Both the position numbers and the translations under genes were made by a program. The notes under the pieces were generated by a model that was given only the letters and a program-made list of their open reading frames with translations, ran no database searches and was not told the origin of the DNA. From contig JACQKD010000014.1 in NCBI GenBank assembly GCA_016204695.1, forward strand, positions 88,170-152,169: a stretch of DNA of 64,000 nucleotides, given 5' to 3'. Shown one piece after another: positions 979 through 40,113 of the stretch (the stretch's first letter is position 1; the number at the start of each line of letters is the position of its first letter). The DNA is from Candidatus Kaiserbacteria bacterium. Its GTDB lineage: Bacteria > Patescibacteriota > Minisyncoccia > Phycocordibacterales > UBA918.

Positions 979-2079
979 ATGCTGATACCTATGAAAAAAT
1001 TTTTCATCATCCTCATCATTCTCGGACTCGGCGCTCTTGCGTTCTATTGGTACACCAACGGGCGTTTCTTTGCGAAAGACGTGTGTCCTGACGGGCCCGA
1101 TTGTGCTCCGACGTCTCCTGTCACCGAACAGCCAAAGGACGATCATGAAGAAACGTTCAGTATCGACAATGTCACCCGCGCAACCGTCGTGGTTATGGAC
1201 GGCCAAAAGACGGTCGAGCTTTCGCGCACGGGAACGGACCGTACGCTTCATGCGCAATTCAGCATGGACGATATCCCCACGCCGGGCAGTGTCGCACTGC
1301 TTGAAGAACAGGCAATCTACCAAAGCGGCACCGGGGATATCTTCATACCCTCTGTCGCCAATTACGGGGGGAGCGGCTCGTTCGTCTCGATTGACCTGTT
1401 TTCGCAAGAAGGTAATGCCGCCATTATACAGAAAGATTCGTACGCACTTGGTGACCGCGTGCTGGTGCGGAAACTCATGACAGAAGGGTCGGATGCCGTA
1501 TATACGCTCCGAGTGCAGTTTCTCGATCGAAAAAAAGATGAGCCGATGGCTGCCGAACCGACAGTGCTAAAAGAACTGACCGTCTCGGTCGCGGATCACC
1601 AATTCGGGATGGGAAATATCCAAACTCTCTCAAGCGCCTCTCCGGACACATACAAGGATATGATCGTTGTCGACACGCCAAAGAAGGGTGAGAGTGTGTC
1701 TTCACCGCTTACTGTCCGCGGTAAAGCCCGGGGACAGTGGTATTTTGAAGGAACTTTTCCCGTTGTGGTCACCGACTGGGACGGAAAAATAATCGGCGAA
1801 GGGTATGGGGAAGCCAAGGGAGGGGAGTGGATGACACCGGAGTACGTCCCGTTTACGGGCACGATTTCCTTCACTGTCCCGTCCGATACATCGTACCGAT
1901 GCTGTCCACTCACTGGACTTTTTGCTTCGCTTCTCTCGCAAAAATTCTCAGTGAGTCTTGCGGAAGCATCCCATGCTTCCTCACCATATCGCCGCGGCAC
2001 GATCATTTTCAGAAAAAGCAATGCGTCCGACCTCCGAGAACATGACGATGCTTTTGAGGTGCCGGTGGTCTTCCAATGA
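979..2079 (+). CDS. Gmad2 immunoglobulin-like domain protein, N-terminal TM anchor
   Basis: Motifs PLTVRGKARGQWYFEGTFPVVVTDWDGKIIGEGYGEAKGGEWMT...FTGTISFTVP and GTIIFRKSNASDLREHDDAFEVPVVF are typical of the Gmad2/GerMN-associated Ig-like fold. An alternative start is at 991. Confidence 0.6.
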   Translation: MLIPMKKFFIILIILGLGALAFYWYTNGRFFAKDVCPDGPDCAPTSPVTEQPKDDHEETFSIDNVTRATVVVMDGQKTVELSRTGTDRTLHAQFSMDDIPTPGSVALLEEQAIYQSGTGDIFIPSVANYGGSGSFVSIDLFSQEGNAAIIQKDSYALGDRVLVRKLMTEGSDAVYTLRVQFLDRKKDEPMAAEPTVLKELTVSVADHQFGMGNIQTLSSASPDTYKDMIVVDTPKKGESVSSPLTVRGKARGQWYFEGTFPVVVTDWDGKIIGEGYGEAKGGEWMTPEYVPFTGTISFTVPSDTSYRCCPLTGLFASLLSQKFSVSLAEASHASSPYRRGTIIFRKSNASDLREHDDAFEVPVVFQ

Positions 2080-2617: not shown

Positions 2618-3910
2618 ATGACGGCCGCGGCGCAGAGCGCCGCGGCCGTCCGCCCCTCTACCATGTCACCATTCGAACAAGTCAAAAAGCACATCACTGA
2701 CGCGCTGGACGCGATCGGGGTCACCGACGCCGAAGCGGAGATAGTGATGACTCCGAACGCCATCCGCGACGCGACACTCGAAGTCGAAACCAAAAAAGGC
2801 CCTCGGAAACTGCCGGCCTATCGCGTACAGTTCAATAATGCCCGCGGACCGTACAAAGGCGGCATCCGTTTTCATCCGAACGCCGACCTCGAGGAAGTCA
2901 AAGCACTCGCCGCGACGATGGCGGTAAAGTGCGCGGTGATTGATGTGCCGCTCGGCGGCGCAAAAGGAGGCGTGGCATTCGACCCGAAAGAATACGACCG
3001 GGACGACATTGAAAAAATCTCGCGCGCATACATTCGCGCCATGCACCCCTATCTCGGCATTGACATTGATATCGCCGCCCCTGATGTGTACACAACGCCC
3101 GAAATTATGGGCTGGATGCTTGATGAATATGAAACCATAACCGGAAAGAACGAGCCGGGCATGATTACCGGAAAGCCGCTTGTACTCGGCGGAAGCGTCG
3201 GACGCGACACCGCGACCGCGCAAGGCGCCGTCCACGTCTTGCAGGCATATGTCCGAGAACAAGACCTTGACCCCAACAATCTCCGAGTCGCCATTCAAGG
3301 GTTCGGCAATGCTGGATCAGTGATTGCCAAACTCCTGCATGAGGCGGGGTACACCATCATCGCACTTTCCGACAGCAAGGGTACGCTCCACGATACAAAC
3401 GGTCTTGACCCCGACCGAGTCGAAGAAGCGAAAAAGGCCGGGGGAAGCGTGACGGCCGCGGCAGGAGGCGGGGCGGAAGCATTGGATGGCACTGCAATAC
3501 TCGCGCTCGACTGTGACATCCTCATCCCCGCCGCACTCGACAATCAGATACGCGAAGACAATGTCGGAAGCATACGGGCAAAAATAATTTTGGAACTCGC
3601 CAACAATCCGACTACGCCGGAAGCGGATGCCATACTTGCCGAACGCGATGTGACCGTCATCCCCGATGTGCTTGCAAACGCCGGCGGCGTCACCGTCTCG
3701 TACTTCGAATGGGTGCAAAATCGCCAACAGTACTATTGGACGAAAGAGGAGGTAGACGAACGTCTCAAACAAAAGATGCTTGCCGCGTATGCCACACTCT
3801 CGGCGCGCGTGCACGCCGAGAGTGTGAGCTACCGCGATGCCGCCTACCGTATCGGCATGGAGCGCATCCACCGCGCCATGGCGCAACGTGGCAGATACGA
3901 AACGCACTAG
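2618..3910 (+). CDS. gdh: Glutamate dehydrogenase (Glu/Leu/Phe/Val dehydrogenase family)
   Basis: Catalytic motif KGGIRFHPNADLEEVKALAATMAVKCAVIDVPLGGAKGGV, and Rossmann GFGNAGSV. The track ORF begins at 2552 but overlaps the upstream gene; the in-frame ATG at 2618 or 2663 is the likely start. Confidence 0.9.
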   Translation: MTAAAQSAAAVRPSTMSPFEQVKKHITDALDAIGVTDAEAEIVMTPNAIRDATLEVETKKGPRKLPAYRVQFNNARGPYKGGIRFHPNADLEEVKALAATMAVKCAVIDVPLGGAKGGVAFDPKEYDRDDIEKISRAYIRAMHPYLGIDIDIAAPDVYTTPEIMGWMLDEYETITGKNEPGMITGKPLVLGGSVGRDTATAQGAVHVLQAYVREQDLDPNNLRVAIQGFGNAGSVIAKLLHEAGYTIIALSDSKGTLHDTNGLDPDRVEEAKKAGGSVTAAAGGGAEALDGTAILALDCDILIPAALDNQIREDNVGSIRAKIILELANNPTTPEADAILAERDVTVIPDVLANAGGVTVSYFEWVQNRQQYYWTKEEVDERLKQKMLAAYATLSARVHAESVSYRDAAYRIGMERIHRAMAQRGRYETH

Positions 3911-4034
3911 TACGCGACCCCCACTACCGACTTTTTTCAATATAACACTTCTCCTTCGGGAAGAAGGGAGATGTGCGTTCGGGTGCTTTTTGCGGCCGAT
4001 ACATTTGCTATACTGAAGTCAAACAACTATTCGT

Positions 4035-5096
4035 ATGGCCAACAGCCGCACCGTTGAATATGTTTTCTTTTTCGGGATTCTCGGCCTGGCGGCGTATGTC
4101 ATGTGGCAGATTGTCGAACCGTTTTTCGGATCGCTTGCGGTCGCGGCAATCATCGCCACTGTCGGGTATCCGTTTTACCGGAGGATTCTTGTCCTGATGC
4201 CTCGGCAGAACAGGGGTCTTGCGGCGCTTGCCACGACACTTCTTATCGGCCTGCTGGTCGTAGTGCCGCTTGCCGTACTTGCGTACCTCATCTTCGAACA
4301 GACGTTTTCCCTCTATACGTTTCTAAGCCACGACGGCGCGACGACGGTCAACCAGTCGATTTCCCACATAGAGTCCTTGGTGCACGGCGTCGTGCCATCG
4401 TTTACATTCGATGCGGGAACCTATGCGAGACAGGCGACCGAATGGCTCGCCACGCATATCGGCGCCATTTTCGCCGCCACGACCTCAACGGTCTTTTTCA
4501 TCTTCATCGCAACGGTCGCCGTCTTCTATTTCTTTCGCGACGGCGAGCAGTGTATCGCCTACATAACCGAGATCAGCCCGCTTCCCAAAGAGGAGAATGC
4601 GCATATCTTCAAGGCACTTGCTCGCTCAATGCGCTCTGTGGTGCTCGGCACCCTCGCGGTCGCCATCATACAAGGCGTCCTGACCGCCATCGGGTTTGCG
4701 ATCTTCGGCATCAGTACTCCGGTCCTCTGGGGAGCGGTAGCGGCAGTCGGTTCGTTGATACCGGGAGTCGGCACCCTTATCGTATTCGTGCCGGCCGTCG
4801 TCTATTTCGCCCTGCAAGGCTCGTACGGCGCGATGTTGGGACTCGTTATTTGGGGAAGTGTGGCGGTGGGTATGATCGACAATCTGCTCGGGCCATATCT
4901 CATGAGCCGCGGCGCGGCGCTCCACCCACTCCTGGTGCTCCTCACGGTCCTCGGCGGTATCGCGGTATTCGGACCCATGGGCTTTATCCTCGGACCGGTG
5001 ACATTGAGCCTGCTTGCGGTGTTGCTTGAGCTTCACGCCGCACGTGCAAAATCAGGCCTTCCGACCGAACATCCTTCGGTTTCTTATGATGGATAA
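4035..5096 (+). CDS. AI-2E family transporter (PerM/UPF0118-like permease)
   Basis: Eight or more TM helices; conserved VAIIQGVLTAIGFAIFGISTPVLWG...LIPGVG region typical of AI-2E family. Confidence 0.8.
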   Translation: MANSRTVEYVFFFGILGLAAYVMWQIVEPFFGSLAVAAIIATVGYPFYRRILVLMPRQNRGLAALATTLLIGLLVVVPLAVLAYLIFEQTFSLYTFLSHDGATTVNQSISHIESLVHGVVPSFTFDAGTYARQATEWLATHIGAIFAATTSTVFFIFIATVAVFYFFRDGEQCIAYITEISPLPKEENAHIFKALARSMRSVVLGTLAVAIIQGVLTAIGFAIFGISTPVLWGAVAAVGSLIPGVGTLIVFVPAVVYFALQGSYGAMLGLVIWGSVAVGMIDNLLGPYLMSRGAALHPLLVLLTVLGGIAVFGPMGFILGPVTLSLLAVLLELHAARAKSGLPTEHPSVSYDG

Positions 5097-5526
5097 ACGC
5101 TTCATAGACTCATACCTCCGTATTAACAACGTAGACGAACGCGCTTCGGAGGCGACCGTACGCAAGACGCTTGGGGACGCCCGTTGGCCGAAGGAAGAGA
5201 TCGAGGAAGCCATTCTCGTGCGAAACGGCGACGAAGCGGCAAAGGCGCGACTCATACAAAAAGAAAAAGAGCGGACGTTTCGACCGGACATGGACTGGTC
5301 GTCAACCAAACTTTCGACACTGTTGGGTACCGACGTTGTTATCGATCCGAAATTGTTCCAGACATATGCGCACAGACAGGAGCAAGCGGGAGGCGGCGTC
5401 AGGACAATACTGTTCGGACTCTCTATTGCCGCGATTGCGACCATTATCGCCGCAGGCATAGGAGTGGCCTTGTTGTACTTTCTCGAAATGGGCCCTTTTT
5501 ACACTCAAGCGCAGGACATTATCTAG
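5086..5526 (+). CDS. Hypothetical protein with C-terminal TM helix
   Basis: In-frame ATG at 5086 (MMDKRF) avoids overlap with the upstream gene. C-terminal LFGLSIAAIATIIAAGIGVALLYF. Confidence 0.4.
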   Translation: MMDKRFIDSYLRINNVDERASEATVRKTLGDARWPKEEIEEAILVRNGDEAAKARLIQKEKERTFRPDMDWSSTKLSTLLGTDVVIDPKLFQTYAHRQEQAGGGVRTILFGLSIAAIATIIAAGIGVALLYFLEMGPFYTQAQDII

Positions 5527-5542
5527 CGGAAAGCAGTTTCGC

Positions 5543-5851
5543 TCATCCCTCTTCGCCTGTTTGGGATTTGAAATAGAAACCGATGATAAACCCGAGCGGG
5601 CCGGAGAGTATCGCCGAAATGGCGGTGATAAGGTCGATCAAGCTGTTGGTCTCCATTTTACCCGCGCCGAAGAGAATCATCGCAAAGAGCAAGATGCCTA
5701 GAAACCCGATGACATATGCAAACGCAATCTTGGAGCGCGCATCTTCTCGCTTAACGGCTACGCTCCCGACAACTCCTTCCAAAACCGCGCTGGATCCGAC
5801 TTCAATTTCTCCTGCCGAAGGGATTGAAACGAATTCATCATTTGTTGACAT
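5543..5851 (-). CDS. Small membrane protein (hypothetical)
   Basis: Two TM helices (IAFAYVIGFLGILLFAMILFGAG; LITAISAILSGPLGFIIGFYF); 14-nt overlap with the upstream minus-strand ORF suggests an operon. Confidence 0.4.
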   Translation of the reverse strand: MSTNDEFVSIPSAGEIEVGSSAVLEGVVGSVAVKREDARSKIAFAYVIGFLGILLFAMILFGAGKMETNSLIDLITAISAILSGPLGFIIGFYFKSQTGEEG

Positions 5852-6056
5852 AGAACCCTTTTACCTCGTACATATTGTCATGCTTTTCAACCTCAAGTTC
5901 TTTGCCCGCCAGCGTCGACAGATCAACGCCGCTGATTTTTACGCCGTGCGAGAACATGGCGTCCCGCAAGATGACACCGCCAATCTTTATCGGCCCCTTG
6001 ATCGTGAAGGTGCCATCAGGATTGATACCCATTATTGATGATGCTCGTATTCTCAT
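5838..6056 (-). CDS. Small hypothetical protein
   Basis: 72-aa ORF translationally coupled to 5543..5851; no motif recognised. Confidence 0.35.
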   Translation of the reverse strand: MRIRASSIMGINPDGTFTIKGPIKIGGVILRDAMFSHGVKISGVDLSTLAGKELEVEKHDNMYEVKGFYVNK

Positions 6057-6121
6057 AGCGTTAATGATAACAGATTCCGCACCCTAGACAAAGAACCAAA
6101 AACAGGTGATGATGCCGACCA

Positions 6122-7240
6122 TTGGTTATGTCTCGTAGCAAAAAGCAGTCCGGGCGTGATTCTCTGGCGCCTAAAGGCGCACGAGACCATGCTCTTAAGC
6201 GGTATGTCAAGAGTGAGCTGTTTTGGCTCTTGGTCGTCTGCCTCGGCGCGGTCGCCGTATTTGCGCTCACCCGATCTATCCCGGCAAGCGACGAGACCGC
6301 CATTACGGGGGATTCAATCCTCTTTGTGGGAGATGTCATGCTCGCGCGCAATGTCGAGCGGTTGATGAACGAACACGGCTCGTATTACCCGTACAAGGGC
6401 GTGCGCGACATGCTCGCCGAACATGAGCAAGTCATCGGTAATTTCGAGGCGAGTATACCGGAGCTCCATCGCCCGACTCCCAGTTTCACCTTCAGATTTT
6501 CCGTTTCTCCCGATATCCTCGCGGCGCTTCCGCGTGTAGGATTTACCGCTATGACGCTCGCCAACAATCATTCCTACGACTACGGAGAAGGCGGATATCT
6601 CCACACCCGCGACACACTGATACGAGAAGGACTTGCGACGGGAGGCAATCCAATGAAGATTTCCGCAGACGAGGTACTCTACCGAAGGATAGCGGACACG
6701 GACATTGCGATCATCCCCATCCATGCGACCACAGTGACACCCGTCGTCGCCGACATACGGGAAGTGCTCGCGCTGACTGCGGAAAAAAGTGATCTGCAGG
6801 TCGTCTTCATTCATTGGGGCACCGAATACGAATCCGTCTCCGACAGTGCCCAACAAACATTCGCGCATGCGGTCATTGATGCCGGTGCGGACGCGATCAT
6901 CGGACACCACCCGCATGTGGTCCAAAATATCGAAGAGTACCGCGGCACGCCGATCTTTTATTCGCTCGGGAACTTCATCTTCGATCAATACTGGAACACC
7001 GAAGTACGAGAGGGACTCACAGTCGCGATATCGTTTGAGGAAGACAGGGTACACTACACGCTTATCCCCGTCTCAAGCATGGAAACAAAAAGCCAACCGC
7101 GGCCCATGAACCGCATTGAACGGACGCAGTTCCTCGACGTCCTTGCGGCAAAAAGTGAGGACGTCATTGCGGACGCAATCAGGAACGGATCCATCGTGGA
7201 ACCGTTCGCTCGAAGAAAATCAGAAACTTTGATAGACTAA
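6122..7240 (+). CDS. capA: CapA/PgsA-family metallophosphatase (poly-gamma-glutamate capsule biosynthesis-like protein)
   Basis: Motifs GDVMLAR, GNFE, LANNHSYDYG, IHWGTEY, GHHPHVVQ, YSLGNF; N-terminal TM anchor. Confidence 0.8.
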   Translation: MVMSRSKKQSGRDSLAPKGARDHALKRYVKSELFWLLVVCLGAVAVFALTRSIPASDETAITGDSILFVGDVMLARNVERLMNEHGSYYPYKGVRDMLAEHEQVIGNFEASIPELHRPTPSFTFRFSVSPDILAALPRVGFTAMTLANNHSYDYGEGGYLHTRDTLIREGLATGGNPMKISADEVLYRRIADTDIAIIPIHATTVTPVVADIREVLALTAEKSDLQVVFIHWGTEYESVSDSAQQTFAHAVIDAGADAIIGHHPHVVQNIEEYRGTPIFYSLGNFIFDQYWNTEVREGLTVAISFEEDRVHYTLIPVSSMETKSQPRPMNRIERTQFLDVLAAKSEDVIADAIRNGSIVEPFARRKSETLID

Positions 7241-7830: not shown

Positions 7831-9150
7831 ATGACTCCATTCTCTTTCTCCATTACAAAAAAGCTGTCCGGCAAACTCGGCAGAGTGGGCGTTATCCATA
7901 CGCCGCACGGCGACATCGAGACTCCGGCATTTACCGTTGTCGGCACCAAAGCGACGGTGAAAGCGCTCTCGCCGGAGGACGTACGCGACCTTGTCGGCGC
8001 GCAGGCCGTACTCGTCAACACCTACCATCTCTACCTCCAGCCGGGCGAAGCACTTATCAAAGATGCGGGCGGATTGCACACATTCATGCACTGGGACGGG
8101 CCGACACTCTCCGACTCCGGCGGCTTCCAGGTCTTTTCGCTCGGCGCGGGCCTGGAAGGAAAGGGTGAGAAGCGAATACTTGGAGCTTCGCAAGACTCAT
8201 CGAGGGCTTTTGTGAGGGACGAAACAAAAGACCCGATGAGTGGACAGCGCCGGTACGGCGTCACCAAATTCACCGGCGAGTTCGCGGACTCCTCCGACGA
8301 CATGCGTCCGCGCCTCTATAACAAAGAGATTGCACTCCAGCACGGCAAGCTCTGCATCCTCGACGAAGAAGGCGTGACGTTTACCTCGCATCTCGACGGC
8401 TCGCTTCACCGCTTCACCGCCGAACGTTCGATCGAAATACAGCATGCCATCGGCGCGGACATCATGTTCGCGTTCGACGAGTGCACGTCTCCGACCGCCG
8501 ACTATGTATACCAGAAAGAGGCGCTTGAACGCACGCACCGCTGGGCCAAGCGCTCGATTCTTGCACACAAACGCGACTACAACGCGCTGAAATCGCAAGC
8601 GCTCTACGGCATCGTACAGGGCGGTCGTTTTGAGGACTTGCGAAAGGGGAGCGCGACCGAGCTTGCAAAAATGGATTTCGACGGGTACAGCTTCGGCGGC
8701 GCGTTCTCAAAGGAAGACCTCAAGACGCTTGAATGGGTCAACGCCATCCTACCGGAAGAAAAGCCTCGGCATCTCCTCGGCATCGGCGAACCGGAAGATC
8801 TCTTCATCGGTGTCGAGAACGGCATGGACACCTTTGACTGCGTCCTCCCGACCCGTATCGCCCGCACCGGCACCATCTACACCCATCACGGAAAAGTTAA
8901 TCTACTGCGAACGGAGTACCAGCGCGACCTCGGAAAGCCCGACGACACCTGCGACTGCTACACGTGCACCCACTACACCCGCGCCTACCTCGCCCACCTT
9001 TTCCGCGCAAAAGAAATGCTCGCCGCCCGCCTCGCCTCCATCCACAATCTCCATTTCATCGTCTCCCTCATAAAAAACATCCGTCGCAACATCCTCGACG
9101 ATACCTACCCACAATCCAAAGAAAACTTTTTACGAACGTATCGGGTTTAA
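7831..9150 (+). CDS. tgt: Queuine tRNA-ribosyltransferase with an ~60-aa internal insertion
   Basis: Motifs TPAFTVVGTKATVKAL, NTYHLYLQPG, LSDSGGFQVFSLG, GVTFTSHLDGSLHRFTAERSIEIQHAIGADIMFAFDEC and the zinc site CDCYTCTHYTRAYLAHL. At 439 aa it is longer than the usual ~370-380; the extra segment (~8160-8340) contains repeat copy 1. Confidence 0.9.
   Translation: MTPFSFSITKKLSGKLGRVGVIHTPHGDIETPAFTVVGTKATVKALSPEDVRDLVGAQAVLVNTYHLYLQPGEALIKDAGGLHTFMHWDGPTLSDSGGFQVFSLGAGLEGKGEKRILGASQDSSRAFVRDETKDPMSGQRRYGVTKFTGEFADSSDDMRPRLYNKEIALQHGKLCILDEEGVTFTSHLDGSLHRFTAERSIEIQHAIGADIMFAFDECTSPTADYVYQKEALERTHRWAKRSILAHKRDYNALKSQALYGIVQGGRFEDLRKGSATELAKMDFDGYSFGGAFSKEDLKTLEWVNAILPEEKPRHLLGIGEPEDLFIGVENGMDTFDCVLPTRIARTGTIYTHHGKVNLLRTEYQRDLGKPDDTCDCYTCTHYTRAYLAHLFRAKEMLAARLASIHNLHFIVSLIKNIRRNILDDTYPQSKENFLRTYRV
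8165..8260 (+). repeat. Structured palindromic repeat family, copy 1 (in frame inside tgt)
   Basis: Hairpin A GAAGCGAATACTTGGAGCTTC (8169-8189), long imperfect hairpin B ACTCATCGAGGGCTTTTGT...ACAAAAGACCCGATGAGT (8195-8241), and 3' module CAGCGCCGGTACGGCG (8245-8260). Homologous to 39233-39421, 32383-32505(-) and 34656-34772(-). Confidence 0.75.
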
Positions 9151-9927: not shown

Positions 9928-11967
9928 ATGAGCGGGTTTAAACTCTCTACAAACTACACCCCCGCGGGGGACCAGCCGAAGGCGATTGAGTCGCTTATAA
10001 AAGGCGTCAAGCGCGGCGACCGACACCAGACGCTTCTTGGTGTCACCGGCTCCGGCAAGACGTTCACGGCGGCAAACGTCATCGCGGCCATACAGAAGCC
10101 GACGCTCGTCATCGCACACAACAAGACGCTCGCGGCACAGCTCGCGCAGGAGTACGCGGACTTCTTTCCCGAAAACGACGTGCATTATTTCGTCTCGTAC
10201 TACGACTACTACCAACCCGAGGCGTACATGCCCATTTCGGACACATACATCGAGAAGGAGGCGATGATCAACGAGGAGATCGACCGCCTCCGCCACGCTT
10301 CGACGCAGGCACTTCTCTCGCGAAGCGATGTCATCATCGTCGCATCCGTCTCGTGCATTTACGGCCTCGGCTCGCCGATAGAATATGAAAAAGTGCACAA
10401 GCGCATCGAAGTCGGTACGGTCATCACGCGGCGCGACATGGTGCGCGCGCTCGTGGCATTGTATTTTGAACGTACCAACGCCGACCTTGCGCCCGGCCAC
10501 TTCCGCGCACTCGGCAACACCATAGAAATAATGCCGACAAACGAGCGCGTTATCTACCGGCTCTCCTTCAGCGGAGACGCCGTGGGAAAGATAGAACGCA
10601 TCGACGCGGTCACACGGACAATCATCGCGGAAGTGCCGACATTTTTCCTCTTTCCCGCAAAACATTTCGTGACACCCGAGCTGGAACGCAAGCGCGCCAT
10701 CGCCGACATTACACTCGAGCTCAAAGACCAGCTCGCAAAATTTGAAAAAGAAGGGAAGATTCTCGAAGCCGAGCGCATCAAGCGGCGCACCCAGCACGAC
10801 CTTGCGCTCATACGCGAAATCGGCTATTGCAACGGCATTGAAAACTACTCCCGCCATTTCGACGGCCGCAAGCCGGGGGAAGCGCCGTACACCCTCCTTT
10901 CATACTTCCCGCACAAGCCGGACGGCATGCCGGACTTTTTGACCATTATCGACGAGTCGCACGTCACCATCCCCCAGCTCGGCGGCATGTACGCGGGCGA
11001 CCGCTCGCGCAAGGACACGCTCGTCGAGCACGGATTCCGCCTGCCGAGCGCCGTGGATAACCGGCCGCTGACGTTTGACGAGTTTGAGGAGCGCGTCGGC
11101 GAAACCATCTACACCTCCGCGACGCCCGGCACCTACGAACACGAGCACAGCACGCAAGTCGTCGAGCAGATCATCCGTCCGACCGGACTTGTGGACCCGG
11201 AAATTATTGTGCGTCCGATTGTGAGTCAAGAAGAAAATCAAGGAAAAAATACTGAAGCGTACCCCGGACAAGTACGAGATTTCATCGCTGAAACAGAAAA
11301 GGTAGTAAAAGGCGGCGGCCGCGTGCTCGTCACCACGCTCACGAAAAAAATGGCCGAAGACCTCTCCGAATTCCTCAAGGAGCAAAGCGTGCAAGCCGAA
11401 TACATCCATAGCGAAATCAAGACGCTTGAACGCATCGAAATACTCACCAACTTTCGCAGAGGGAAGTTCGACGTGCTCGTCGGAGTCAACCTGCTCCGAG
11501 AAGGACTCGACCTTCCCGAAGTCGAGCTTGTCGCCATACTCGATGCGGACAAAGAGGGTTTCTTGCGTTCAGAAACATCGCTCATCCAGACCATCGGCCG
11601 CGCCGCACGCAATGTCAACGGCCGCGTCATACTCTACGCCGACGGGATGACCGGCTCGCTTGAAAAAGCCATCGGCGAGACCAACCGTCGCCGCGCCATT
11701 CAAATCGCATACAACACCGAGCACGGCATCACCCCGGCCACCATCAAGAAAGAAATCAAAGACATCACCGAACAGCTCCGTACCGTCCATGAGGAGACCG
11801 TAGACACACTCCTTTCCATCGACCGCGACCTCTACAAGAAGAACCCCAAGAAACTCATCCGCGAAAAGAACCGCCAAATGGCGGAAGCCGTCAAACTCCT
11901 CGACTTCGAAACCGCCGCCATCCTCCGCGACGAGATCAGAGCGCTGGAGGACAGAGGAGGTAGATAG
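9928..11967 (+). CDS. uvrB: Excinuclease ABC subunit B
   Basis: LLGVTGSGKTFTAANVIA (Walker A), YFVSYYDYYQPEAY, helicase motifs, C-terminal UVR domain LDFETAAILRDEIRALE. Confidence 0.95.
   Translation: MSGFKLSTNYTPAGDQPKAIESLIKGVKRGDRHQTLLGVTGSGKTFTAANVIAAIQKPTLVIAHNKTLAAQLAQEYADFFPENDVHYFVSYYDYYQPEAYMPISDTYIEKEAMINEEIDRLRHASTQALLSRSDVIIVASVSCIYGLGSPIEYEKVHKRIEVGTVITRRDMVRALVALYFERTNADLAPGHFRALGNTIEIMPTNERVIYRLSFSGDAVGKIERIDAVTRTIIAEVPTFFLFPAKHFVTPELERKRAIADITLELKDQLAKFEKEGKILEAERIKRRTQHDLALIREIGYCNGIENYSRHFDGRKPGEAPYTLLSYFPHKPDGMPDFLTIIDESHVTIPQLGGMYAGDRSRKDTLVEHGFRLPSAVDNRPLTFDEFEERVGETIYTSATPGTYEHEHSTQVVEQIIRPTGLVDPEIIVRPIVSQEENQGKNTEAYPGQVRDFIAETEKVVKGGGRVLVTTLTKKMAEDLSEFLKEQSVQAEYIHSEIKTLERIEILTNFRRGKFDVLVGVNLLREGLDLPEVELVAILDADKEGFLRSETSLIQTIGRAARNVNGRVILYADGMTGSLEKAIGETNRRRAIQIAYNTEHGITPATIKKEIKDITEQLRTVHEETVDTLLSIDRDLYKKNPKKLIREKNRQMAEAVKLLDFETAAILRDEIRALEDRGGR
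11896..11952 (+). repeat. Direct repeat A (native 3' end of uvrB)
   Basis: CTCGACTTCGAAACCGCCGCCATC... is repeated at 12919-12976 (first 24 nt identical, remainder ~75% identical and AT-richer). Confidence 0.7.
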
Positions 11968-12005
11968 TGTGAAGAGATAATTCCTTCTCTGATAAGATTG
12001 GAGAT

Positions 12006-12719
12006 ATGACCGATGATGAGATTCGCGAGACGGCAATCGAGTTTGCAAAACGAAACAAAAACCGCATTGCCCGAGAGCTTACCGACAAGACAACGTATGC
12101 GCCGGACACTGCACCGGTTTCCATTTTTATGGCTGGCTCGCCCGGAGCGGGAAAGACGGAATTTTCAAAAGCATTGATAACGCTTTTGGAAGTGCGCACG
12201 GGGCTTCGCGCGGTACGAATCGATAACGATGAGATACGTCCTTTAATTCCCGGATACACCGGAAGTAACTCATACCTATTCCAAGGAGCAACGACGCTCA
12301 TTGTCGAAAAAATGCATGACCTTGCCCTACATAACGGACAAAGTTTTATTATGGACAACACGTTCACGAATTTTGAAAAGGGTACTGATAATATCAGACG
12401 TTCCCTTGGAAAAGAACGCCCGATTTTAATTTTCTACTTGTACCAAAAACCGGAGGTTGCGTGGAGATTTACGCAAGCGCGAGAAGCGACAGAAGGCAGA
12501 AATATCCCGAAAGGGGCATTTATCGAACAATTTTTAGGTGCACGTCATACGGTTGCCAAAATCATCGATAGATTCGGAGACCGAGTCATTGCTTTTCTTG
12601 TCAAGAAAGATTTTGAGAAAAACACCTTGGAAGGCATCTATCGTGTTGTCGAAAGCCAAGAAATTGACCGGTATATACCAGAGGAGTACACTGAAGAGAA
12701 GTTGCAAGAATGCTTATGA
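12006..12719 (+). CDS. Zeta-toxin-family P-loop kinase (zeta/PezT-like)
   Basis: Walker A MAGSPGAGKTEF, RIDNDEIRPLIP, about 230 aa, AT-rich. Confidence 0.65.
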   Translation: MTDDEIRETAIEFAKRNKNRIARELTDKTTYAPDTAPVSIFMAGSPGAGKTEFSKALITLLEVRTGLRAVRIDNDEIRPLIPGYTGSNSYLFQGATTLIVEKMHDLALHNGQSFIMDNTFTNFEKGTDNIRRSLGKERPILIFYLYQKPEVAWRFTQAREATEGRNIPKGAFIEQFLGARHTVAKIIDRFGDRVIAFLVKKDFEKNTLEGIYRVVESQEIDRYIPEEYTEEKLQECL

Positions 12720-12898
12720 AACTACGCGCCATATTCTCTTTATTTCGAGACAACAAGAAAGGAGATTCTTTTTCCGATGTTCTTTTGCGTGCGCCTGAAG
12801 GTCAAAGGGAAGAATTATTCAAGGAAGCGGCACGACAGGCCAACGAGGAGCAAAGAAAAATATTTGAGCAGTCCCGCGTGAACACTCCGGCTTCTTGA
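12710..12898 (+). CDS. Small helical protein overlapping the zeta-toxin stop (possible cognate partner)
   Basis: 62-aa ORF whose ATG lies inside GAATGCTTATGA at the toxin 3' end (10-nt overlap). Confidence 0.3.
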   Translation: MLMKLRAIFSLFRDNKKGDSFSDVLLRAPEGQREELFKEAARQANEEQRKIFEQSRVNTPAS

Positions 12899-12918
12899 AA
12901 ACCGTCAAATCCGGCGGA

Positions 12919-12987
12919 CTCGACTTCGAAACCGCCGCCATCTTGCGGGATGAGATACGAGCGTTGGAAGAAGGAACGAAAAAGTAG
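12919..12987 (+). repeat. Direct repeat B: displaced duplicate of the uvrB 3' end (pseudo C-terminus ...LDFETAAILRDEIRALEEGTKK*)
   Basis: Homologous to 11896-11967; the pair brackets the zeta cassette. Confidence 0.7.
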
Positions 12988-12993
12988 TATAAT
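12988..12993 (+). promoter_or_regulatory. Putative -10 box (TATAAT) upstream of the vapB-like gene
   Basis: TATAAT lies 9 nt upstream of the GTG at 13003. Confidence 0.3.
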
Positions 12994-13002
12994 CACACCA
13001 TC

Positions 13003-13176
13003 GTGACCAAAGCTACCGTCACAAAAAGACTTACCGGCTTGGAGGCCGAGATTCGGATGCTCAAGACAGCCGTACGTACGCGACCGAATTTCGTCGTGGA
13101 TGACGCAAACTGGAAAAAAATTAAACCTGCTCTAAAGAAAGTGCGCAAACAGGTTTCCAAGCAGACCTATGGCTAA
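13003..13176 (+). CDS. vapB: VapB-like antitoxin (small ORF absent from the track because of its GTG start and <60 aa length)
   Basis: GTG-initiated 57-aa ORF VTKATVTKRLTGLEAEIRMLKTAVRTRPNFVVDDANWKKIKPALKKVRKQVSKQTYG. Its stop overlaps the vapC ATG (ATGGCTAA), indicating translational coupling. Confidence 0.5.
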   Translation: MTKATVTKRLTGLEAEIRMLKTAVRTRPNFVVDDANWKKIKPALKKVRKQVSKQTYG

Positions 13177-13606
13177 GCCAAAGGTTTTTGTAGACTCCAG
13201 TGTCATCATTGCTTCGCTTCTATCCGCAACAGGAGGTAGCGCGTATATTCTCAACAGCTATCACGAAAACTGCGAGTTTCAAACGAATGAGCACGGCTTG
13301 GCGGAAATTCAAAGGGTATTAAAAGATAAATTCGCCGATCAACCGGATTTACAAAACCAACTCTTTCTACTCCTCGGCACGGCTCGGATAGTAATATTAC
13401 TGAATCCTACAAAACGGGAACGAAACATTTGTGCCAAATATATTTCCGAGATAGACGCACCCATTCTCGCCTCGGCAATCAAGCATAGTGACTACTTGCT
13501 CACTCTTGATAACGAATTTTTAGGAAAGAGTGTGGCAGAAATCGCTCGAAAGAATTCTCTAACCATCCTAAAACCAAAAGATTTTATAGAACAATTCGAA
13601 ACATAA
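13169..13606 (+). CDS. vapC: PIN-domain toxin (VapC family)
   Basis: VFVDSSVIIASL (N-terminal catalytic Asp), DAPILASAI, LLTLDNEF. Confidence 0.8.
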   Translation: MAKPKVFVDSSVIIASLLSATGGSAYILNSYHENCEFQTNEHGLAEIQRVLKDKFADQPDLQNQLFLLLGTARIVILLNPTKRERNICAKYISEIDAPILASAIKHSDYLLTLDNEFLGKSVAEIARKNSLTILKPKDFIEQFET

Positions 13607-13608
13607 AC

Positions 13609-14115: not shown

Positions 14116-14197
14116 TAGATCTAGAAATAGAACGCCCGACTTGCTATAATCTACCCGTCACATCCTCACACTATGTCCATAGGTGAGGCCGTTATCT

Positions 14198-16837: not shown

Positions 16838-16876
16838 AATAGAACAAGGCCGTCCCAGAAAGACAGCCTTGTGTCC

Positions 16877-17071
16877 TCACTTATACTCCGGCCGCTTGTG
16901 CGGCTTGGTACAGGTGGGGCAAACTACCAATGCCCAGTCGGAGAAAGAACGCCTCCCACAACCGGCATTGGCGCAAAAAATGGTCCAGCAGTCCGTGCAC
17001 TGCCAGACAAGACCGGGCTTCCCGAAAGCCCCGCACGAGGGGCAGATGGTTACTTTGAGGTCCTTTTTCAT
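16877..17071 (-). CDS. Zinc-ribbon small protein
   Basis: CPSC..C..C......C..C.......CPTC pattern in 64 aa. Confidence 0.5.
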   Translation of the reverse strand: MKKDLKVTICPSCGAFGKPGLVWQCTDCWTIFCANAGCGRRSFSDWALVVCPTCTKPHKRPEYK

Positions 17072-17085
17072 ACGACCCCCTTTCT

Positions 17086-20047: not shown

Positions 20048-20075
20048 AGTGGACCCGAGGGGATTCGATCCTTAC
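20048..20075 (-). repeat. Degenerate duplicate of the tRNA-Ala(CGC) 3' end (integration scar)
   Basis: Reverse complement reads ...GTAAGGATCGAATCCCCTCGGGTCCA; the last 20 nt are identical to the 3' end of tRNA-Ala(CGC) 140 bp away. Confidence 0.6.
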
Positions 20076-20212
20076 AGGATCAGTATACCTTGCGGATACT
20101 TTTCTTCTCCGCCAGCCGGCGGATCGAAAAGATATCTCGCAAGGTCTGCGAACCCCCTGTATCCTACAAAAACATAGTCGCGTGACGCTTCGCGTCCCGC
20201 TCCTTGTTTTTG

Positions 20213-32382: not shown

Positions 32383-32505
32383 TTAGTGACTCGGGCCGAC
32401 TCCCTACGGGAGCAGTACACCTTGCGGCTCTTTTGCTTCGGCGTACGCCTCGCAAAACAGCTCGCAAGATCTTGAGGAAGCTCCAAGTATTCGCTTCCTC
32501 AACCT
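32383..32505 (-). repeat. Structured palindromic repeat family, copy 3 (intergenic, between the two tRNA-Pro genes)
   Basis: Hairpin A extended to a 10-bp stem (TTGAGGAAGC / TCCAAGTATTC / GCTTCCTCAA on the + strand); hairpin B ATCTTGCGAGCTGTTTTGCG...GCAAAAGAGCCGCAAGGT. Confidence 0.65.
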
Positions 32506-34655: not shown

Positions 34656-34772
34656 GATGCACGCTCCGTACAGAAACCTCACACCCATTCATTAGATCTT
34701 TTGTTTCGACGTCCGTCTTACAAAAGCTCTCAATGGGTCTCGTGGAAGCTCCACGTATTCGCTTCCTCACAC
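34656..34772 (-). repeat. Structured palindromic repeat family, copy 4 (immediately 3' of tRNA-Val)
   Basis: Reverse complement: GAGGAAGCGAATACGTGGAGCTTCC..., then hairpin ACCCATTGAGAGCTTTTGT...ACAAAAGATCTAATGAATGGGT. Carries compensatory base changes relative to copy 1. Confidence 0.7.
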
Positions 34773-38382: not shown

Positions 38383-40113
38383 ATGCCTTTGCGACTTGAG
38401 CGGCTCCTCCCATACGCGCTTCCCGTATTGCTCGTCATGCTCTATATCATCCTGCTCTCCGGCGGTATCAATCTCGTGACCGCCGACCTCGGCAGGCATA
38501 TCGCGAACGGCCGGCTTTTCCTCGAGACGTGGCAGACGATAGACACCAACACCTATTCCTACACGCATCCGGACTTCCCGGTCGCCAATCATCACTGGCT
38601 CTCCGGCGTCCTTTTCTATCTCACGTTCATTGTCGGAGGATTCGCGGGAACACACCTCATGTTCATCCTCGTGAGCGCCGCGGCATTTCTCATTTTTTTC
38701 CGTATCGCATGGAAAAAGGGCGGACTTCCGCTTGCGAGTGTCTTCGCACTCCTCCTCTTGCCCATCATCGCCGAGCGCACCGAAGTCCGGCCCGAGGCAT
38801 TCAGCTATCTGCTCGCGGGCGTATATTTCTTTCTGCTCCTTAGGCATCGCGAAGGGCGACTCTCTGCGAAAGCGCTTGCGATAACACTCGGCATTCTGCA
38901 AGTCCTCTGGGTCAATCTCCATATCTATTTTTTCGTCGGCTGGGTATTGGTCGGAACATTCCTGCTTGAAGACATCGTCATGCGCGGCAGGCGGCACGCA
39001 TCAACCAAAACGCTCGCGCTCTGTTTCGGCATCGTGCTTGCCGCAGTATTCGTCAATCCGTTTACGCTCGAAGGCGCGCTCGCGCCGTTTACCATTTTCA
39101 ATGAATACGGCTATCGGCTCGTCGAGAACCAGTCGGTGTGGTTCCTCCGGAGCATACTCAACCGTCCAAACCTGCTTTATTTTGAAATCGTTTCAGCCGC
39201 GCTCGTCGGAAGTTTCATACTCGTCTTCATCCGTGAGAAGCGAATACTTGGAGCTTCGCAAGAGGTTGTCGACAGTTTCGACCGAATGGTGAGAAGCCGT
39301 GGGACGGCTTCGCAAGACCTTTTGAGATATTTCCGAAGCGAAGCGAACGGAAATAGCCAAAAGGTATACAGTTCCTGTAAGGAAGAAACTGTCATACAAC
39401 CTGAACAGCGCCGGTACGGCGAGAACATACGTATTGTGGAGCTAATTTTAGGTCTCGGATTCGGCGTGGCCGCGGCGCTCGCCCTGCGCAACTTCACCAT
39501 CTTCGGCCTTTTCGCACTACCGCTCTTCGCCGAAAATGTCGCACACGCATTTCCATCCATAAAAACGTCCGCTTCGCGAACCGCCGAGTGGATGCTCGCC
39601 GGAGTTATCGCCGTCATCGTCCTTTTGTTCGTCACCGGCGAGATGCGCAAGGCGTATGCGTATCCGCCGCACGCACTCGGCCTCTTGCCGGGCAACGAGC
39701 GCTCTGCGGAATTTTTTCTCGCGCACGATCTCAAGGGACCGATATTCAACAACTACGACATCGGCGGGTATCTCATCCACTACCTCTATCCGCACGAACG
39801 TGTGTTCGTCGACAACCGCCCCGAAGCATACCCTGCGGAATTTTTCCGGAACGTATATATTCCGATGCAGGAAAATGAAACTGTCTGGAACGAACAGGAC
39901 GCAACGCATCACTTCAACACCATCTTCTTCTCGTACCATGACTACACGCCGTGGGCTCAGCAATTTTTGGTCGCACGGATCAACGACCCCGACTGGGCGC
40001 CGGTGTACGCCGACAATTTCGTCATCATTTTTCTCAAGCGGAACGAGCAAAATACTGCTATCATCAGTGAGTTTGAAATCCCGCGCGAGCGGTTCAGGAT
40101 GACGCCGTCATGA
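38383..40113 (+). CDS. Large polytopic membrane protein (GT-C-like glycosyltransferase candidate) carrying an in-frame repeat insertion
   Basis: About twelve TM helices. A cytoplasmic-loop segment at 39233-39421 is repeat copy 2. Confidence 0.5.
   Translation: MPLRLERLLPYALPVLLVMLYIILLSGGINLVTADLGRHIANGRLFLETWQTIDTNTYSYTHPDFPVANHHWLSGVLFYLTFIVGGFAGTHLMFILVSAAAFLIFFRIAWKKGGLPLASVFALLLLPIIAERTEVRPEAFSYLLAGVYFFLLLRHREGRLSAKALAITLGILQVLWVNLHIYFFVGWVLVGTFLLEDIVMRGRRHASTKTLALCFGIVLAAVFVNPFTLEGALAPFTIFNEYGYRLVENQSVWFLRSILNRPNLLYFEIVSAALVGSFILVFIREKRILGASQEVVDSFDRMVRSRGTASQDLLRYFRSEANGNSQKVYSSCKEETVIQPEQRRYGENIRIVELILGLGFGVAAALALRNFTIFGLFALPLFAENVAHAFPSIKTSASRTAEWMLAGVIAVIVLLFVTGEMRKAYAYPPHALGLLPGNERSAEFFLAHDLKGPIFNNYDIGGYLIHYLYPHERVFVDNRPEAYPAEFFRNVYIPMQENETVWNEQDATHHFNTIFFSYHDYTPWAQQFLVARINDPDWAPVYADNFVIIFLKRNEQNTAIISEFEIPRERFRMTPS
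39233..39421 (+). repeat. Structured palindromic repeat family, copy 2 (composite, in frame inside the membrane protein gene)
   Basis: GTGAGAAGCGAATACTTGGAGCTTCGCAAGA (31 nt identical to copy 1), internal partial duplication GAGAAGCCGTGGGACGGCTTCGCAAGAC, hairpin CCTTTTGAGATATTTCCG...CGGAAATAGCCAAAAGG, and 3' module CAGCGCCGGTACGGCG. Confidence 0.75.

What the first reader, a model, noticed from the sequence alone, without database searches (positions are those of the whole stretch)
8165..8260. Novel structured palindromic repeat family (four copies) with compensatory base changes, reminiscent of Rickettsia RPEs
Four homologous elements are present: 8165-8260 (+), 39233-39421 (+), 32383-32505 (-) and 34656-34772 (-). 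All share hairpin A, GAAGC-GAATACTTGGA-GCTTC; in copy 3 its stem is extended to 10 bp. All share a long imperfect hairpin B whose apex-proximal CTTTTG...CAAAAG is conserved while the distal stem varies. The outer stem of hairpin B shows compensatory substitutions between copies. Copy 1 pairs ACTCATC with GATGAGT, whereas copy 4 pairs ACCCATT with AATGGGT; two positions have changed on both strands and pairing is kept. That argues for selection on RNA or DNA secondary structure rather than on protein sequence. Copies 1 and 2 also share a 3' module CAGCGCCGGTACGGCG. The two intergenic copies each sit directly beside a tRNA gene (Pro, Val).
Basis: seen in the sequence. Interest (0 to 1): 0.85.

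Follow-up and report, generated by a model that had tools for sequence, protein, structure and literature searches.

The report
Structured mobile repeat family of Patescibacteria
The window, from a Candidatus Kaiserbacteria genome, holds six copies of a ~95-base three-hairpin repeat that is found in at least 94 Patescibacteria assemblies, sits in frame inside proteins and inside tRNA genes, matches no catalogued RNA family, and resembles the palindromic elements of Rickettsia.

Summary
The window holds six copies, not four. The two new ones are at 1886-1985(-) and 20065-20197(-). Copy 2 is one element nested inside hairpin B of another.

Each unit is (G)GUGAG, hairpin A, GCAAGA, a variable hairpin B, UG(U/G/A)ACAG, then hairpin C with a GUA loop.

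All three helices covary: 97-99.5% of cells are paired and no shuffle of 500 reached the observed score. The fold is strand-specific.

Three window copies lie in frame inside genes: tgt, a membrane protein, and (antisense) a Gmad2-domain protein. The closest homologues of all three lack the 31-60 extra residues.

Elsewhere the element splits tRNA genes. Twice it carries an intact tRNA gene in the apex of hairpin B. In orthologous mnmA genes it is about 98% identical while the flanking coding sequence is about 80%.

No Rfam family, phage, plasmid or paper matched.

Best reading: a new family of structured, non-autonomous mobile repeats, similar in behaviour to Rickettsia RPE, pneumococcal BOX and enterobacterial ERIC elements. 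What moves it is unknown. A cellular RNA function is not excluded.

The parts
8165..8260 (+). Copy 1, the finding. It lies in frame inside tgt. Hairpin A is 8169-8189 (loop 8174-8184), GCAAGA is 8190-8195, hairpin B is 8195-8241, GGACAG is 8242-8247 and hairpin C is 8248-8260. The net insert relative to homologues is 31 aa (93 nt).
   Evidence: Model hit of 92.7 bits. Fold z = -4.1. Homologues at 77-86% identity read GK|GVTKF without the insert.
7831..9150 (+). Host gene tgt (tRNA-guanine transglycosylase, 439 aa). NCBI names it Candidatus Kaiserbacteria bacterium.
39233..39421 (+). Copy 2, the outer unit. It has hairpin A, a GGTTGTCGACAGTTTC...GAAACTGTCATACAACC hairpin B, TGAACAG, and hairpin C (CGCCGGTACGGCG). 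It lies in frame inside a membrane protein.
   Evidence: Homologues of 515-521 aa lack about 60 aa at this point.
39287..39387 (+). Copy 2, the inner unit, nested in the apical loop of the outer hairpin B. Its hairpin A variant is GAGAAGCC-GUGGGAC-GGCUUC.
   Evidence: Model hit of 63.4 bits. Uninterrupted outer-type hairpin B is seen in L074, L066 and L025.
38383..40113 (+). Host gene of copy 2. It is a 576-aa multi-pass membrane protein (HY416_04365) with no Pfam family.
32397..32503 (-). Copy 3. It is intergenic, between tRNA-Pro(ggg) at 32158-32230 and tRNA-Pro(cgg) at 32659-32730, and antisense to both. Its hairpin A stem is extended to 10 bp.
   Evidence: 73.7 bits. z = -4.8. tRNAs.
34661..34771 (-). 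Copy 4. It starts 10 nt downstream of tRNA-Val(cac) at 34782-34856, on the same strand. Its hairpin C is degenerate.
   Evidence: 56.2 bits. z = -1.9.
1886..1985 (-). Its hairpin A variant has an AUGGGAU loop. It lies antisense and in frame inside the Gmad2-domain ORF at 979-2079(+), where it encodes 31 extra residues.
   Evidence: 51.4 bits. Pfam Gmad2. Homologues read TVPPDT|PYRRG without the 31 aa.
20065..20197 (-). Hairpin A is degenerate and long; hairpins B and C are canonical. It starts 14 nt downstream of tRNA-Ala(cgc) at 20212-20284, on the same strand.
   Evidence: 36.3 bits. Sequence.
20049..20067 (-). A 19-nt direct repeat of the 3' end of tRNA-Ala(cgc), CGAATCCCCTCGGGTCCAC. The original is at 20212-20230. 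The repeat abuts hairpin C of copy 6, so the insert is bracketed by a duplicated stretch running from the T-loop to the 3' end of the tRNA.
   Evidence: Read from the sequence.

Best explanation
These are copies of a previously uncatalogued family of short (about 90-105 nt), modular, non-autonomous mobile repeats of Patescibacteria.

**Shown**
- The unit is a three-hairpin fold of one specific strand. It has a near-invariant hairpin A with flanks GUGAG...GCAAGA, a length-variable hairpin B, a conserved joiner ..ACAG, and a 5-bp hairpin C with a GUA loop.
- Copies are gained at new sites. These include surface-loop codons of proteins in either orientation, loops and junctions of tRNA genes, spacers next to tRNA, 5S and 23S genes, and the hairpin B apex of other copies.
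- Coding copies that survive are in frame and free of stop codons, so they are read through as 31-60 extra residues. The tgt copy encodes GEKRILGASQDSSRAFVRDETKDPMSGQRRY.

**Inferred**
- Propagation uses a single-stranded intermediate (ssDNA or RNA) of the sense strand.
- The fold of that strand, and above all hairpin A, is recognised by a trans-acting enzyme that has not been identified.
- Selection for that recognition, possibly helped by gene conversion among copies, keeps the sequence and the pairing conserved across the phylum.
For: **Mobility**
- Three empty-site comparisons show the insert is absent from the closest homologues.
- Copies are nested within one another.
- The window has 6 copies in 64 kb. 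The 115 loci have 146 model hits, with clusters of 3-5 copies in some.
- Sub-families differ in hairpin B type.
- tRNA genes are split by the element. Removing it in silico from L110 lets ARAGORN call a tRNA-Phe again.
- An independent element-like insert (..SSGPRRYGD) sits in another Tgt, P0024.

**Structure under selection**
- Covariation is strong in both alignments.
- There are 17 G.U pairs against 2 A.C pairs.
- The sense strand folds better than the antisense strand in 71 of 74 copies with RNA parameters and 72 of 74 with DNA parameters.

**Not tied to transcription of neighbouring genes**
- Orientation relative to flanking ORFs is about random: 41 same against 46 opposite upstream, and 42 against 38 downstream.
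- Both orientations occur inside coding sequence.
- Both orientations occur in this window, which shows no GC-skew switch.

**Compatible with being translated**
- Antisense frames are stop-free in 65-78% of copies, against 14% of shuffles.
Against: - No mobilising gene was identified.
- The ends are not inverted repeats, and no consistent target-site duplication was seen.
- IS200-like Y1 transposase genes occur in 3 of the loci, but each is flanked by its own unrelated palindromes.
- The DDE-like ORF in the window has no homologue in the other loci.
- The element was absent from 2.9 million viral contigs and from plasmids, so no vector explains its spread across lineages.
- In the one clean orthologous pair (mnmA in L007 and L031) the element differs at 2 of about 112 positions, while the flanking coding sequence is 72-88% identical. 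A copy that was decaying after insertion would not look like that. This points to constraint in place or to repeated conversion.
- Exact insertion junctions remain ambiguous by 2-3 nt.
Confidence: 0.58

Rival explanations
1. It is a functional structured RNA or protein-binding module that serves the cell, for example a hairpin A that presents a conserved UGG(G)A loop to an RNA-binding protein. Under this view dispersal is secondary and each copy is kept by selection where it sits.
For: - The hairpin A core is identical over 21 nt across 94 assemblies, and the unpaired joiners are conserved.
- Conservation in place exceeds that of the host genes: mnmA at about 98% against about 80%, and the element upstream of uvrA at 92% against 78%.
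- The fold is strand-specific.
- Hairpin B tolerates large insertions at its apex, as peripheral stems of functional RNAs do.
- Elements are enriched near tRNA genes and co-oriented with them: 35 of 122 lie within 400 nt, and 27 of those 35 are on the same strand.
- Hairpin A also occurs in other element architectures and in a proteobacterial MAG.
Against: - Orientation relative to protein genes is random, so many copies would be transcribed antisense if at all.
- Copies sit antisense inside mnmA, an exonuclease gene and the Gmad2 gene.
- No promoter or terminator is associated with the element.
- There is no Rfam family.
- Copy number and positions differ between genomes.
Confidence: 0.22
2. 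It is an RNA-level mobile element, either intron-like or retro-mobile. Under this view it inserts into single-stranded loops of folded RNAs (tRNA, 5S, mRNA) and is then copied back into DNA.
For: - Insertion points in tRNA genes fall at loop or junction positions: after the D stem (GGTAGAG|TGAG, in four tRNA-Asn loci and in tRNA-Ile), in the anticodon loop or its 3' edge, in the variable loop, and in the T-loop.
- Only the sense strand folds well.
Against: - There is no ribozyme or intron core (Rfam).
- Coding copies are in frame and stop-free, which splicing would not require.
- Antisense insertions in coding sequence are hard to produce through mRNA.
- No reverse transcriptase was seen nearby, although this was not searched for systematically.
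Confidence: 0.08
3. It is a component or remnant of attachment sites of tRNA-targeting integrative elements, and not a mobile unit in its own right.
For: - Partial tRNA copies broken at the anticodon loop or T-loop flank several elements.
- Copy 6 is bracketed by a 19-nt repeat of the 3' end of tRNA-Ala.
Against: - Clean inserts of about 93 nt occur in three protein genes with no tRNA sequence attached.
- Only about 16 of 122 elements have tRNA fragments in their flanks.
- No integrase gene is adjacent.
Confidence: 0.05
4. It is a chance similarity or a recent local duplication with no conserved structure.
For: none
Confidence: 0.01

Closest known systems
Rickettsia palindromic elements (RPE; Ogata et al. 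2000, cited from my own knowledge)
   Same: - Both are elements of about 100-150 nt that form hairpins.
- Both have many copies per small genome.
- Both insert in frame into protein-coding genes, where they add a peptide in a tolerated loop.
- Both are also found in RNA genes and in spacers.
- Neither has terminal inverted repeats or a known transposase.
   Different: - The host phylum is unrelated, and no sequence relationship was tested or is expected.
- This element has three defined hairpins, with a near-invariant first hairpin shared by at least 94 assemblies.
- It shows nesting, tRNA genes carried in hairpin B, and repeated hits in tRNA genes.
- It is more conserved than its host gene.
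Pneumococcal BOX elements (modules boxA-boxB-boxC; from my own knowledge)
   Same: - Both have a modular A-B-C build with conserved outer modules and a variable middle module.
- Both fold stably.
- Both are scattered through the genome.
   Different: - BOX elements are intergenic, and their boxB module varies by tandem repetition.
- Here hairpin B is a single hairpin of variable length and type.
- Copies of this element also sit inside coding sequences and tRNA genes.
ERIC/IRU and REP/BIME/REPIN repeats of Proteobacteria (REP review PMC3733652 listed; the rest from my own knowledge)
   Same: - All are imperfect palindromes kept similar across species.
- All are often better conserved than their surroundings.
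- REPINs are mobilised by a Y1 HUH transposase that reads single-strand hairpins.
   Different: - This element has no GTAG or CGTC head.
- It does not flank the RAYT-like genes found in L009, L081 and L106, which carry their own palindromes.
- In-frame insertions in coding sequence are not typical of REP or ERIC elements.
MITEs (for example Correia elements)
   Same: Both are small, non-autonomous and multi-copy, and both can nest within one another.
   Different: - The termini are not inverted repeats: GGTGAG at one end and hairpin C at the other.
- The only long inverted repeat, hairpin B, is internal.
- No consistent target-site duplication was seen.
- No parent insertion sequence with the same ends was found.

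Membership tests
Rickettsia palindromic elements (RPE) | Sequence similarity to the RPE-1 to RPE-8 consensus, with rickettsial hosts | not testable with these tools
   No RPE reference sequence is held in the collections. The host here is Kaiserbacteria, so homology is not expected.
Rickettsia palindromic elements (RPE) | In-frame, stop-free insertion in protein genes that is absent from orthologues | tested here: met
   Shown for Tgt, the membrane protein and the Gmad2 protein. Elsewhere it is seen in TsaD, MnmA and an RNase T-like exonuclease.
Rickettsia palindromic elements (RPE) | Stable hairpin fold, with copies also in RNA genes and spacers | tested here: met
MITE | Terminal inverted repeats | tested here: not met
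   The 5' end is (G)GTGAG and the 3' end is hairpin C. The two ends are not complementary.
MITE | Target-site duplication of fixed length | tested here: inconclusive
   Two-nucleotide repeats (GG in tgt, TG in the Gmad2 gene) are in different registers. There is no pattern over 76 flanks.
MITE | An autonomous insertion sequence with the same ends | tested here: not met
   No long cargo lies between hairpin A and hairpin C in the loci. The DDE-like ORF at 21390-22979 is unlinked to the element.
REP/REPIN with RAYT | Palindromes of 20-40 nt with a GTAG or CGTC head that flank a Y1 (RAYT) transposase gene | tested here: not met
   Y1_Tnp genes are present in L009 (Pfam E = 1e-9), L081 and L106, but they are flanked by other palindromes, for example ACAAAGGTTCGACCTTTGT.
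Any Rfam 15 RNA family, including group I and II introns, small ribozymes and T-box | Score at or above the family threshold, or any hit at E <= 10 | tested here: not met
   Only tRNAs were found in the window. Nothing relevant at E <= 10 around copy 3. In 18 loci only rRNA, tRNA, 5S and one group I intron were found.
Self-splicing intron | Removal from the transcript, so that no reading-frame constraint applies | tested here: not met
   Coding copies keep the frame and lack stop codons. Stop codons are depleted. Splicing itself is not testable here.
K-turn or K-loop RNA motif (considered for hairpin A) | Tandem sheared G.A pairs next to a 3-nt bulge or loop | tested here: inconclusive
   The loop reads stem-GA-AUACNUG-GA-stem, which fits the K-loop pattern by eye. 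The flanks GUGA...GCAAGA do not fit a canonical K-turn.

The most novel reading that the evidence does not exclude
Hairpin A, with its GUGAG...GCRAAG flanks and a loop ending in UGG(G)A, could be a recognition module for an unknown machinery that occurs in more than one phylum. The elements built on it would then be a new class of miniature mobile elements with these properties:
- They home into structured-RNA genes.
- They can carry an intact replacement tRNA gene in hairpin B while splitting the resident tRNA of the same specificity (tRNA-Phe in L110, tRNA-Ile in L053).
- They are held under purifying selection where they sit, more strongly than the essential genes that host them.
Probability: 0.2. 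Interest if true: 0.85.

Novelty: new variant of a known kind. Interest (0 to 1): 0.66.

Why it matters
- Patescibacteria have tiny, tightly packed genomes, and little is known about their mobile DNA or non-coding RNA.
- This repeat is spread across the phylum, has a defined fold, and rewrites protein loops. Its hosts include the tRNA-modification enzymes Tgt, TsaD and MnmA. It also breaks and duplicates tRNA genes. That makes it a source of protein and tRNA-gene variation in these organisms.
- It is a practical hazard for gene calling and for tRNA annotation in metagenome-assembled genomes.
- Its invariant 21-nt hairpin gives a direct handle for finding the protein that reads it, by pull-down or by co-occurrence analysis.
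- It offers a second, independent system for the old open question raised by Rickettsia RPEs: how a selfish repeat spreads inside coding sequence without a visible transposase.

Tried and rejected
**Searches for a known match**
- Rfam at gathering thresholds and at E <= 10 gave nothing.
- The core was not found in viral contigs.
- blastn against plasmids found nothing, for copy 1 or for the proteobacterial variant.
- Six literature searches found no description. DUF6399 gave no papers.

**Metagenome scans**
- A scan for an empty tgt allele found nothing.
- A scan for the proteobacterial variant found nothing.

**Candidate mobilisers**
- A search for cargo-bearing (autonomous) forms, hairpin A...hairpin C more than 115 nt apart, found only the two tRNA-carrying cases.
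- The DDE-like ORF at 21390-22979 was tested as a partner. It has no homologue in the 115 loci, no PDB match and no NCBIfam match.
- Y1/RAYT transposases were tested as the mobiliser. They are present in 3 loci but each has its own REP palindromes.

**Protein-level attempts**
- A peptide search for the element-encoded sequence failed. The first queries were rejected, one for an out-of-range E-value and one for being under the 40-aa minimum, and the 40-aa query then shared no words with any candidate.
- An AlphaFold model of Tgt from 11 sequences was too poor to place the insert: mean pLDDT 60, with residues 59-177 below 50.

**Ideas considered and dropped**
- *Spliceosome-like GTGAG...CAG ends.* Rejected, because removing that stretch would shift the reading frame.
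- *Hammerhead-like CUGAUGA/GAAA core.* Rejected, because it is not conserved.
- *Pairing between the hairpin A loop and the joiner.* Rejected, because there is no covariation with the UGUAC, UGGAC and UGAAC variants.
- *Outer pairs of hairpin C supplied by the target.* Left open. Copies 1 and 2 have identical hairpin C at different sites, which argues against it. The 93-nt net inserts in tgt and the Gmad2 gene argue for it.
Full report
**1. The observation**

Three match exactly and copy 4 has one mismatch, against 0.01 matches expected by chance.

- the compensatory pair ACTCATC/GATGAGT (copy 1) against ACCCATT/AATGGGT (copy 4);
- the 10-bp hairpin A stem in copy 3;
- the shared 3' module CAGCGCCGGTACGGCG in copies 1 and 2.

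Each copy folds into three hairpins. The minimum free energies are well below those of shuffles: z = -4.1, -4.8 and -6.0 for copies 1, 3 and 2, and -1.9 for copy 4.

**2. Anatomy and copy number in the window**

I built a covariance model from 74 related copies (alignment A1; model R1). With filters off it finds six copies in the window:

| Copy | Coordinates | Bits | Note |
|---|---|---|---|
| 1 | 8163-8263 (+) | 92.7 | the finding |
| 3 | 32397-32503 (-) | 73.7 | |
| 2 | 39233-39387 (+) | 66.1 | plus the outer hairpin C at 39403-39421 |
| 4 | 34661-34771 (-) | 56.2 | |
| 5 | 1886-1985 (-) | 51.4 | new |
| 6 | 20065-20197 (-) | 36.3 | new |

The unit reads (G)GUGAG, hairpin A, GCAAGA, hairpin B, UG(U/G/A)AC(A/C/U)G, hairpin C.
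- Hairpin A is usually a 5-bp stem with the loop GAAUACNUGGA.
- Hairpin B varies in length and comes in several types.
- Hairpin C has 4-5 variable pairs, then a U-A or C-G closing pair, then a GUA loop.

Copy 2 is a nested composite. An inner unit at 39287-39387 (63.4 bits) sits in the apical loop of the hairpin B of an outer unit. The outer type is seen uninterrupted in other genomes: L025, L066 and L074.

**3. Distribution**

These come from 94 assemblies.

Almost all are Patescibacteria:
- Kaiser-, Taylor-, Zambryski-, Yonath-, Vogel- and Nomurabacteria;
- Paceibacterota and the Parcubacteria group;
- MAGs labelled Saccharibacteria;
- one Levyibacteriota MAG.

The window itself is a Candidatus Kaiserbacteria contig of 152,889 nt.

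Of 122 core matches, 77 have the full A-B-C build. The model finds 146 hits at E < 1e-3 in the 115 loci. Some loci have clusters of 3-5 copies, often next to 5S, 23S or tRNA genes.

Nothing matched in 2.9 million viral contigs, in plasmids or in Rfam 15. Six literature searches found no description.

**4. The structure is conserved, and on one strand**

| Measure | A1, MAFFT alignment | A3, model-aligned set of 70 hits |
|---|---|---|
| Cells that form a standard pair | 99.5% | 97.3% |
| Cells changed on both sides, observed vs shuffled | 154 vs 33.8 | 209 vs 40 |
| Shuffles reaching the observed value | 0 of 500 | 0 of 500 |
| Pairing when 3' partners are slid by 1-3 columns | 33-54% | 32-57% |
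| Pairs that change on both sides | 9 of 15 | 15 of 15 |

- In A1, four of five pairs at the base of hairpin B covary, and all five pairs of hairpin C covary.
- Hairpin A could not vary in A1, because the search pattern fixed it.
- A3 includes copies with other hairpin A versions. There all 15 pairs, including the five of hairpin A, change on both sides. This alignment was fitted to the model, so it leans towards the structure.

Two results show the fold belongs to one strand:
- There are 17 G.U pairs against 2 A.C pairs.
- The sense strand folds better than its complement in 71 of 74 copies with RNA parameters (mean difference -4.6 kcal/mol) and in 72 of 74 with DNA parameters.

So the fold of one specific strand, as RNA or as single-stranded DNA, is what is maintained. 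A double-stranded cruciform does not fit.

**5. Evidence that it moves**

Three window copies lie in frame inside genes, and in each case the closest homologues lack the insert.
- **Tgt.** Homologues at 77-86% identity (408-410 aa) read ..GAAF-GK|GVTKF.. where the window protein has GK[GEKRILGAS...SGQRRY]GVTKF.
- **Membrane protein HY416_04365.** Homologues of 515-521 aa lack about 60 residues.
- **Gmad2-domain protein (979-2079).** Homologues up to 72% identical read TVPPDT|PYRRG, where the window protein carries 31 residues. These are encoded by the antisense strand of copy 5.

Other points:
- The net inserts in tgt and in the Gmad2 gene are both 93 nt.
- Junctions are ambiguous by 2-3 nt, and I found no consistent target duplication.
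- Elsewhere, in-frame copies sit in TsaD (sense), in MnmA and an RNase T-like exonuclease (antisense), and in a probable methyltransferase.
- Another Tgt (P0024) has an independent insert that looks element-derived.
- Antisense frames of the element are stop-free in 65-78% of copies, against 14% of shuffles. That explains why copies in either orientation can survive inside genes.

**6. tRNA genes**

Thirty-five of 122 copies lie within 400 nt of a tRNA gene, against roughly 9% for a random position. Twenty-seven of those 35 are on the same strand as the tRNA.

Several copies sit inside partial or split tRNA genes:
- Four tRNA-Asn loci, and one tRNA-Ile, carry the element immediately after GGTAGAG, the end of the D stem.
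- tRNA-Ile and tRNA-Gly fragments carry it in the variable loop or at the edge of the anticodon loop.
- In L110 the element splits a tRNA-Phe gene and carries a different, intact tRNA-Phe gene in the apex of its hairpin B. Removing the element in silico lets ARAGORN call the outer tRNA-Phe again.
- In L053 an antisense element splits a tRNA-Ile gene in the anticodon loop and carries an intact tRNA-Ile in hairpin B. A second element sits at the GGTAGAG site of the same split gene.
- In the window, copy 6 is followed by a 19-nt repeat of the 3' end of the neighbouring tRNA-Ala.

About 16 of 122 elements have tRNA fragments in their flanks. This is therefore a recurrent feature, not a universal one. 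I cannot explain how the intact tRNA genes came to lie in hairpin B.

**7. Conservation in place**

L007 and L031 carry the element at the same position in orthologous mnmA genes.
- The flanking coding sequence is 72-88% identical per 60-nt block.
- The loop-coding sequence right next to the element is much more diverged.
- The element block differs at only 2 of about 112 positions: the known variable loop base and one base in the hairpin B apex.

A related element upstream of uvrA in L062 and L091 is 92% identical, against 78% for the gene.

Only these two pairs had alignable flanks, so the sample is small. It still excludes simple neutral decay after insertion. It implies either selection on each copy or repeated conversion from a conserved source.

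**8. What it is not tied to**

- Orientation relative to neighbouring protein genes is about random.
- Both orientations occur in this window, which shows no GC-skew switch and whose genes lie almost all on the + strand.
- No promoter or terminator pattern belongs to the element.
- IS200-like Y1 transposase genes occur in three loci, but each is flanked by its own unrelated palindromes.
- A probable DDE transposase in the window (21390-22979) has no relatives in the other loci.

**9. Interpretation**

The best-supported reading is a new family of structured, non-autonomous mobile repeats that behaves like Rickettsia RPEs.
- The gain of copies at new sites, the nesting and the translated in-frame inserts are shown.
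- The use of a single-stranded intermediate, and recognition of hairpin A by an unknown enzyme, are inferred.

The main rival is a functional RNA or protein-binding module kept in place by selection. The conservation data and the invariant unpaired bases favour it. The random orientation and the antisense copies inside genes count against it.

An RNA-level (intron-like or retro-mobile) mechanism and an attachment-site origin are less likely, for the reasons given under the rival explanations.

It is not a member of any family I could test. It fails the MITE criteria (terminal repeats, parent insertion sequence), the REP/RAYT criteria, and every Rfam model.

**10. Verdict**

It is a new variant of a known kind of element. 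Its mechanism is unresolved, and two features remain unexplained: the tRNA genes carried in hairpin B, and a level of conservation above that of the host genes. Those two features give it above-average interest.

Noticed in passing
window 21390-22979 (+): A 530-aa ORF lies directly after tRNA-Ala(tgc). It has an N-terminal HTH domain, a weak hit to the rve integrase core (E = 0.038) and a C-terminal DUF6399 (E = 9e-56). It is probably a DDE-type transposase. It has no PDB, NCBIfam or literature match, and no homologue in the 115 element loci.
   Followed up: partly
L110 4010-4195 (-) and L053 167-501: Intact tRNA genes (Phe and Ile) lie inside the hairpin B apex of elements that themselves split a second, diverged tRNA gene of the same specificity. 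How this arrangement arises is unexplained.
   Followed up: partly
L007 and L031 (mnmA): The element inserted antisense in orthologous mnmA genes differs at 2 of about 112 nt, while the surrounding coding sequence is 72-88% identical.
   Followed up: yes
L034 4425-4500 and L114 ~530-610: One MAG labelled Phenylobacterium has genes that look gammaproteobacterial (ABC-F, LysR, pckA, envZ/ompR). It carries at least two copies of a different intergenic repeat of about 80 nt. That repeat has the same hairpin A loop and GUGAG...RCGAAG flanks. Hairpin A is therefore not confined to Patescibacteria, unless the bin is contaminated.
   Followed up: partly
L023 2853-2887, L027 2282-2316, L075 5156-5176: A second element architecture shares hairpin A but continues as GAACGGAAG, a hairpin, then GAGCGRRGG. 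One copy is in frame inside tsaD.
   Followed up: no
many loci, e.g. L087, L109, L022, L005, L102: A-B-C units are often embedded in a larger composite. The order is a hairpin A', then a CCGGAG..CGAGG hairpin, then the A-B-C unit, then a hairpin GCG..AUUUUUCAGCAGAAAAAU..CGUGAC. A short form has GGGGTC in place of the A-B-C unit.
   Followed up: partly
L009 98-757, L106 3403-4029, L081 1758-2144: IS200-like Y1 (RAYT-like) transposase genes in Patescibacteria are each flanked by their own short palindromes, for example ACAAAGGTTCGACCTTTGT and CATAGGGTNACCCTATG. This is the classic REP-RAYT arrangement and is unrelated to the element studied here.
   Followed up: partly
host genes of in-frame copies (window tgt; L023 tsaD; L007 and L031 mnmA): Three of about seven identified host proteins are enzymes that modify the tRNA anticodon loop. 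This may be chance, but it parallels the link with tRNA genes.
   Followed up: no
L103 4644-4721: Rfam reports a tRNA hit inside a 3.6-kb 23S rRNA gene at 3361-6968. It is presumably within an rRNA insertion.
   Followed up: no
window 12006-12716 (+); 9928-18336: A zeta-toxin family gene lies between uvrB and uvrA, and uvrB, uvrA and uvrC are clustered.
   Followed up: no
window 34615-34643 (-): A strong sigma-70-like promoter match (TTGACA, 17 nt, TATTGT, with TG) lies just downstream of copy 4, ahead of the ORF at 34091-34549.
   Followed up: no
copies found only by the model, e.g. window 1886-1985, window 39287-39387, L053 403-501, L055 4159-4261: Alternative hairpin A versions have longer, covarying stems capped by an N-UGGGA loop. 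UGG(G)A at the 3' side of the loop is the feature shared with the 11-nt loop form. It resembles T-loop (UGGNA) or GGA-loop protein-binding motifs, but this is speculative.
   Followed up: no
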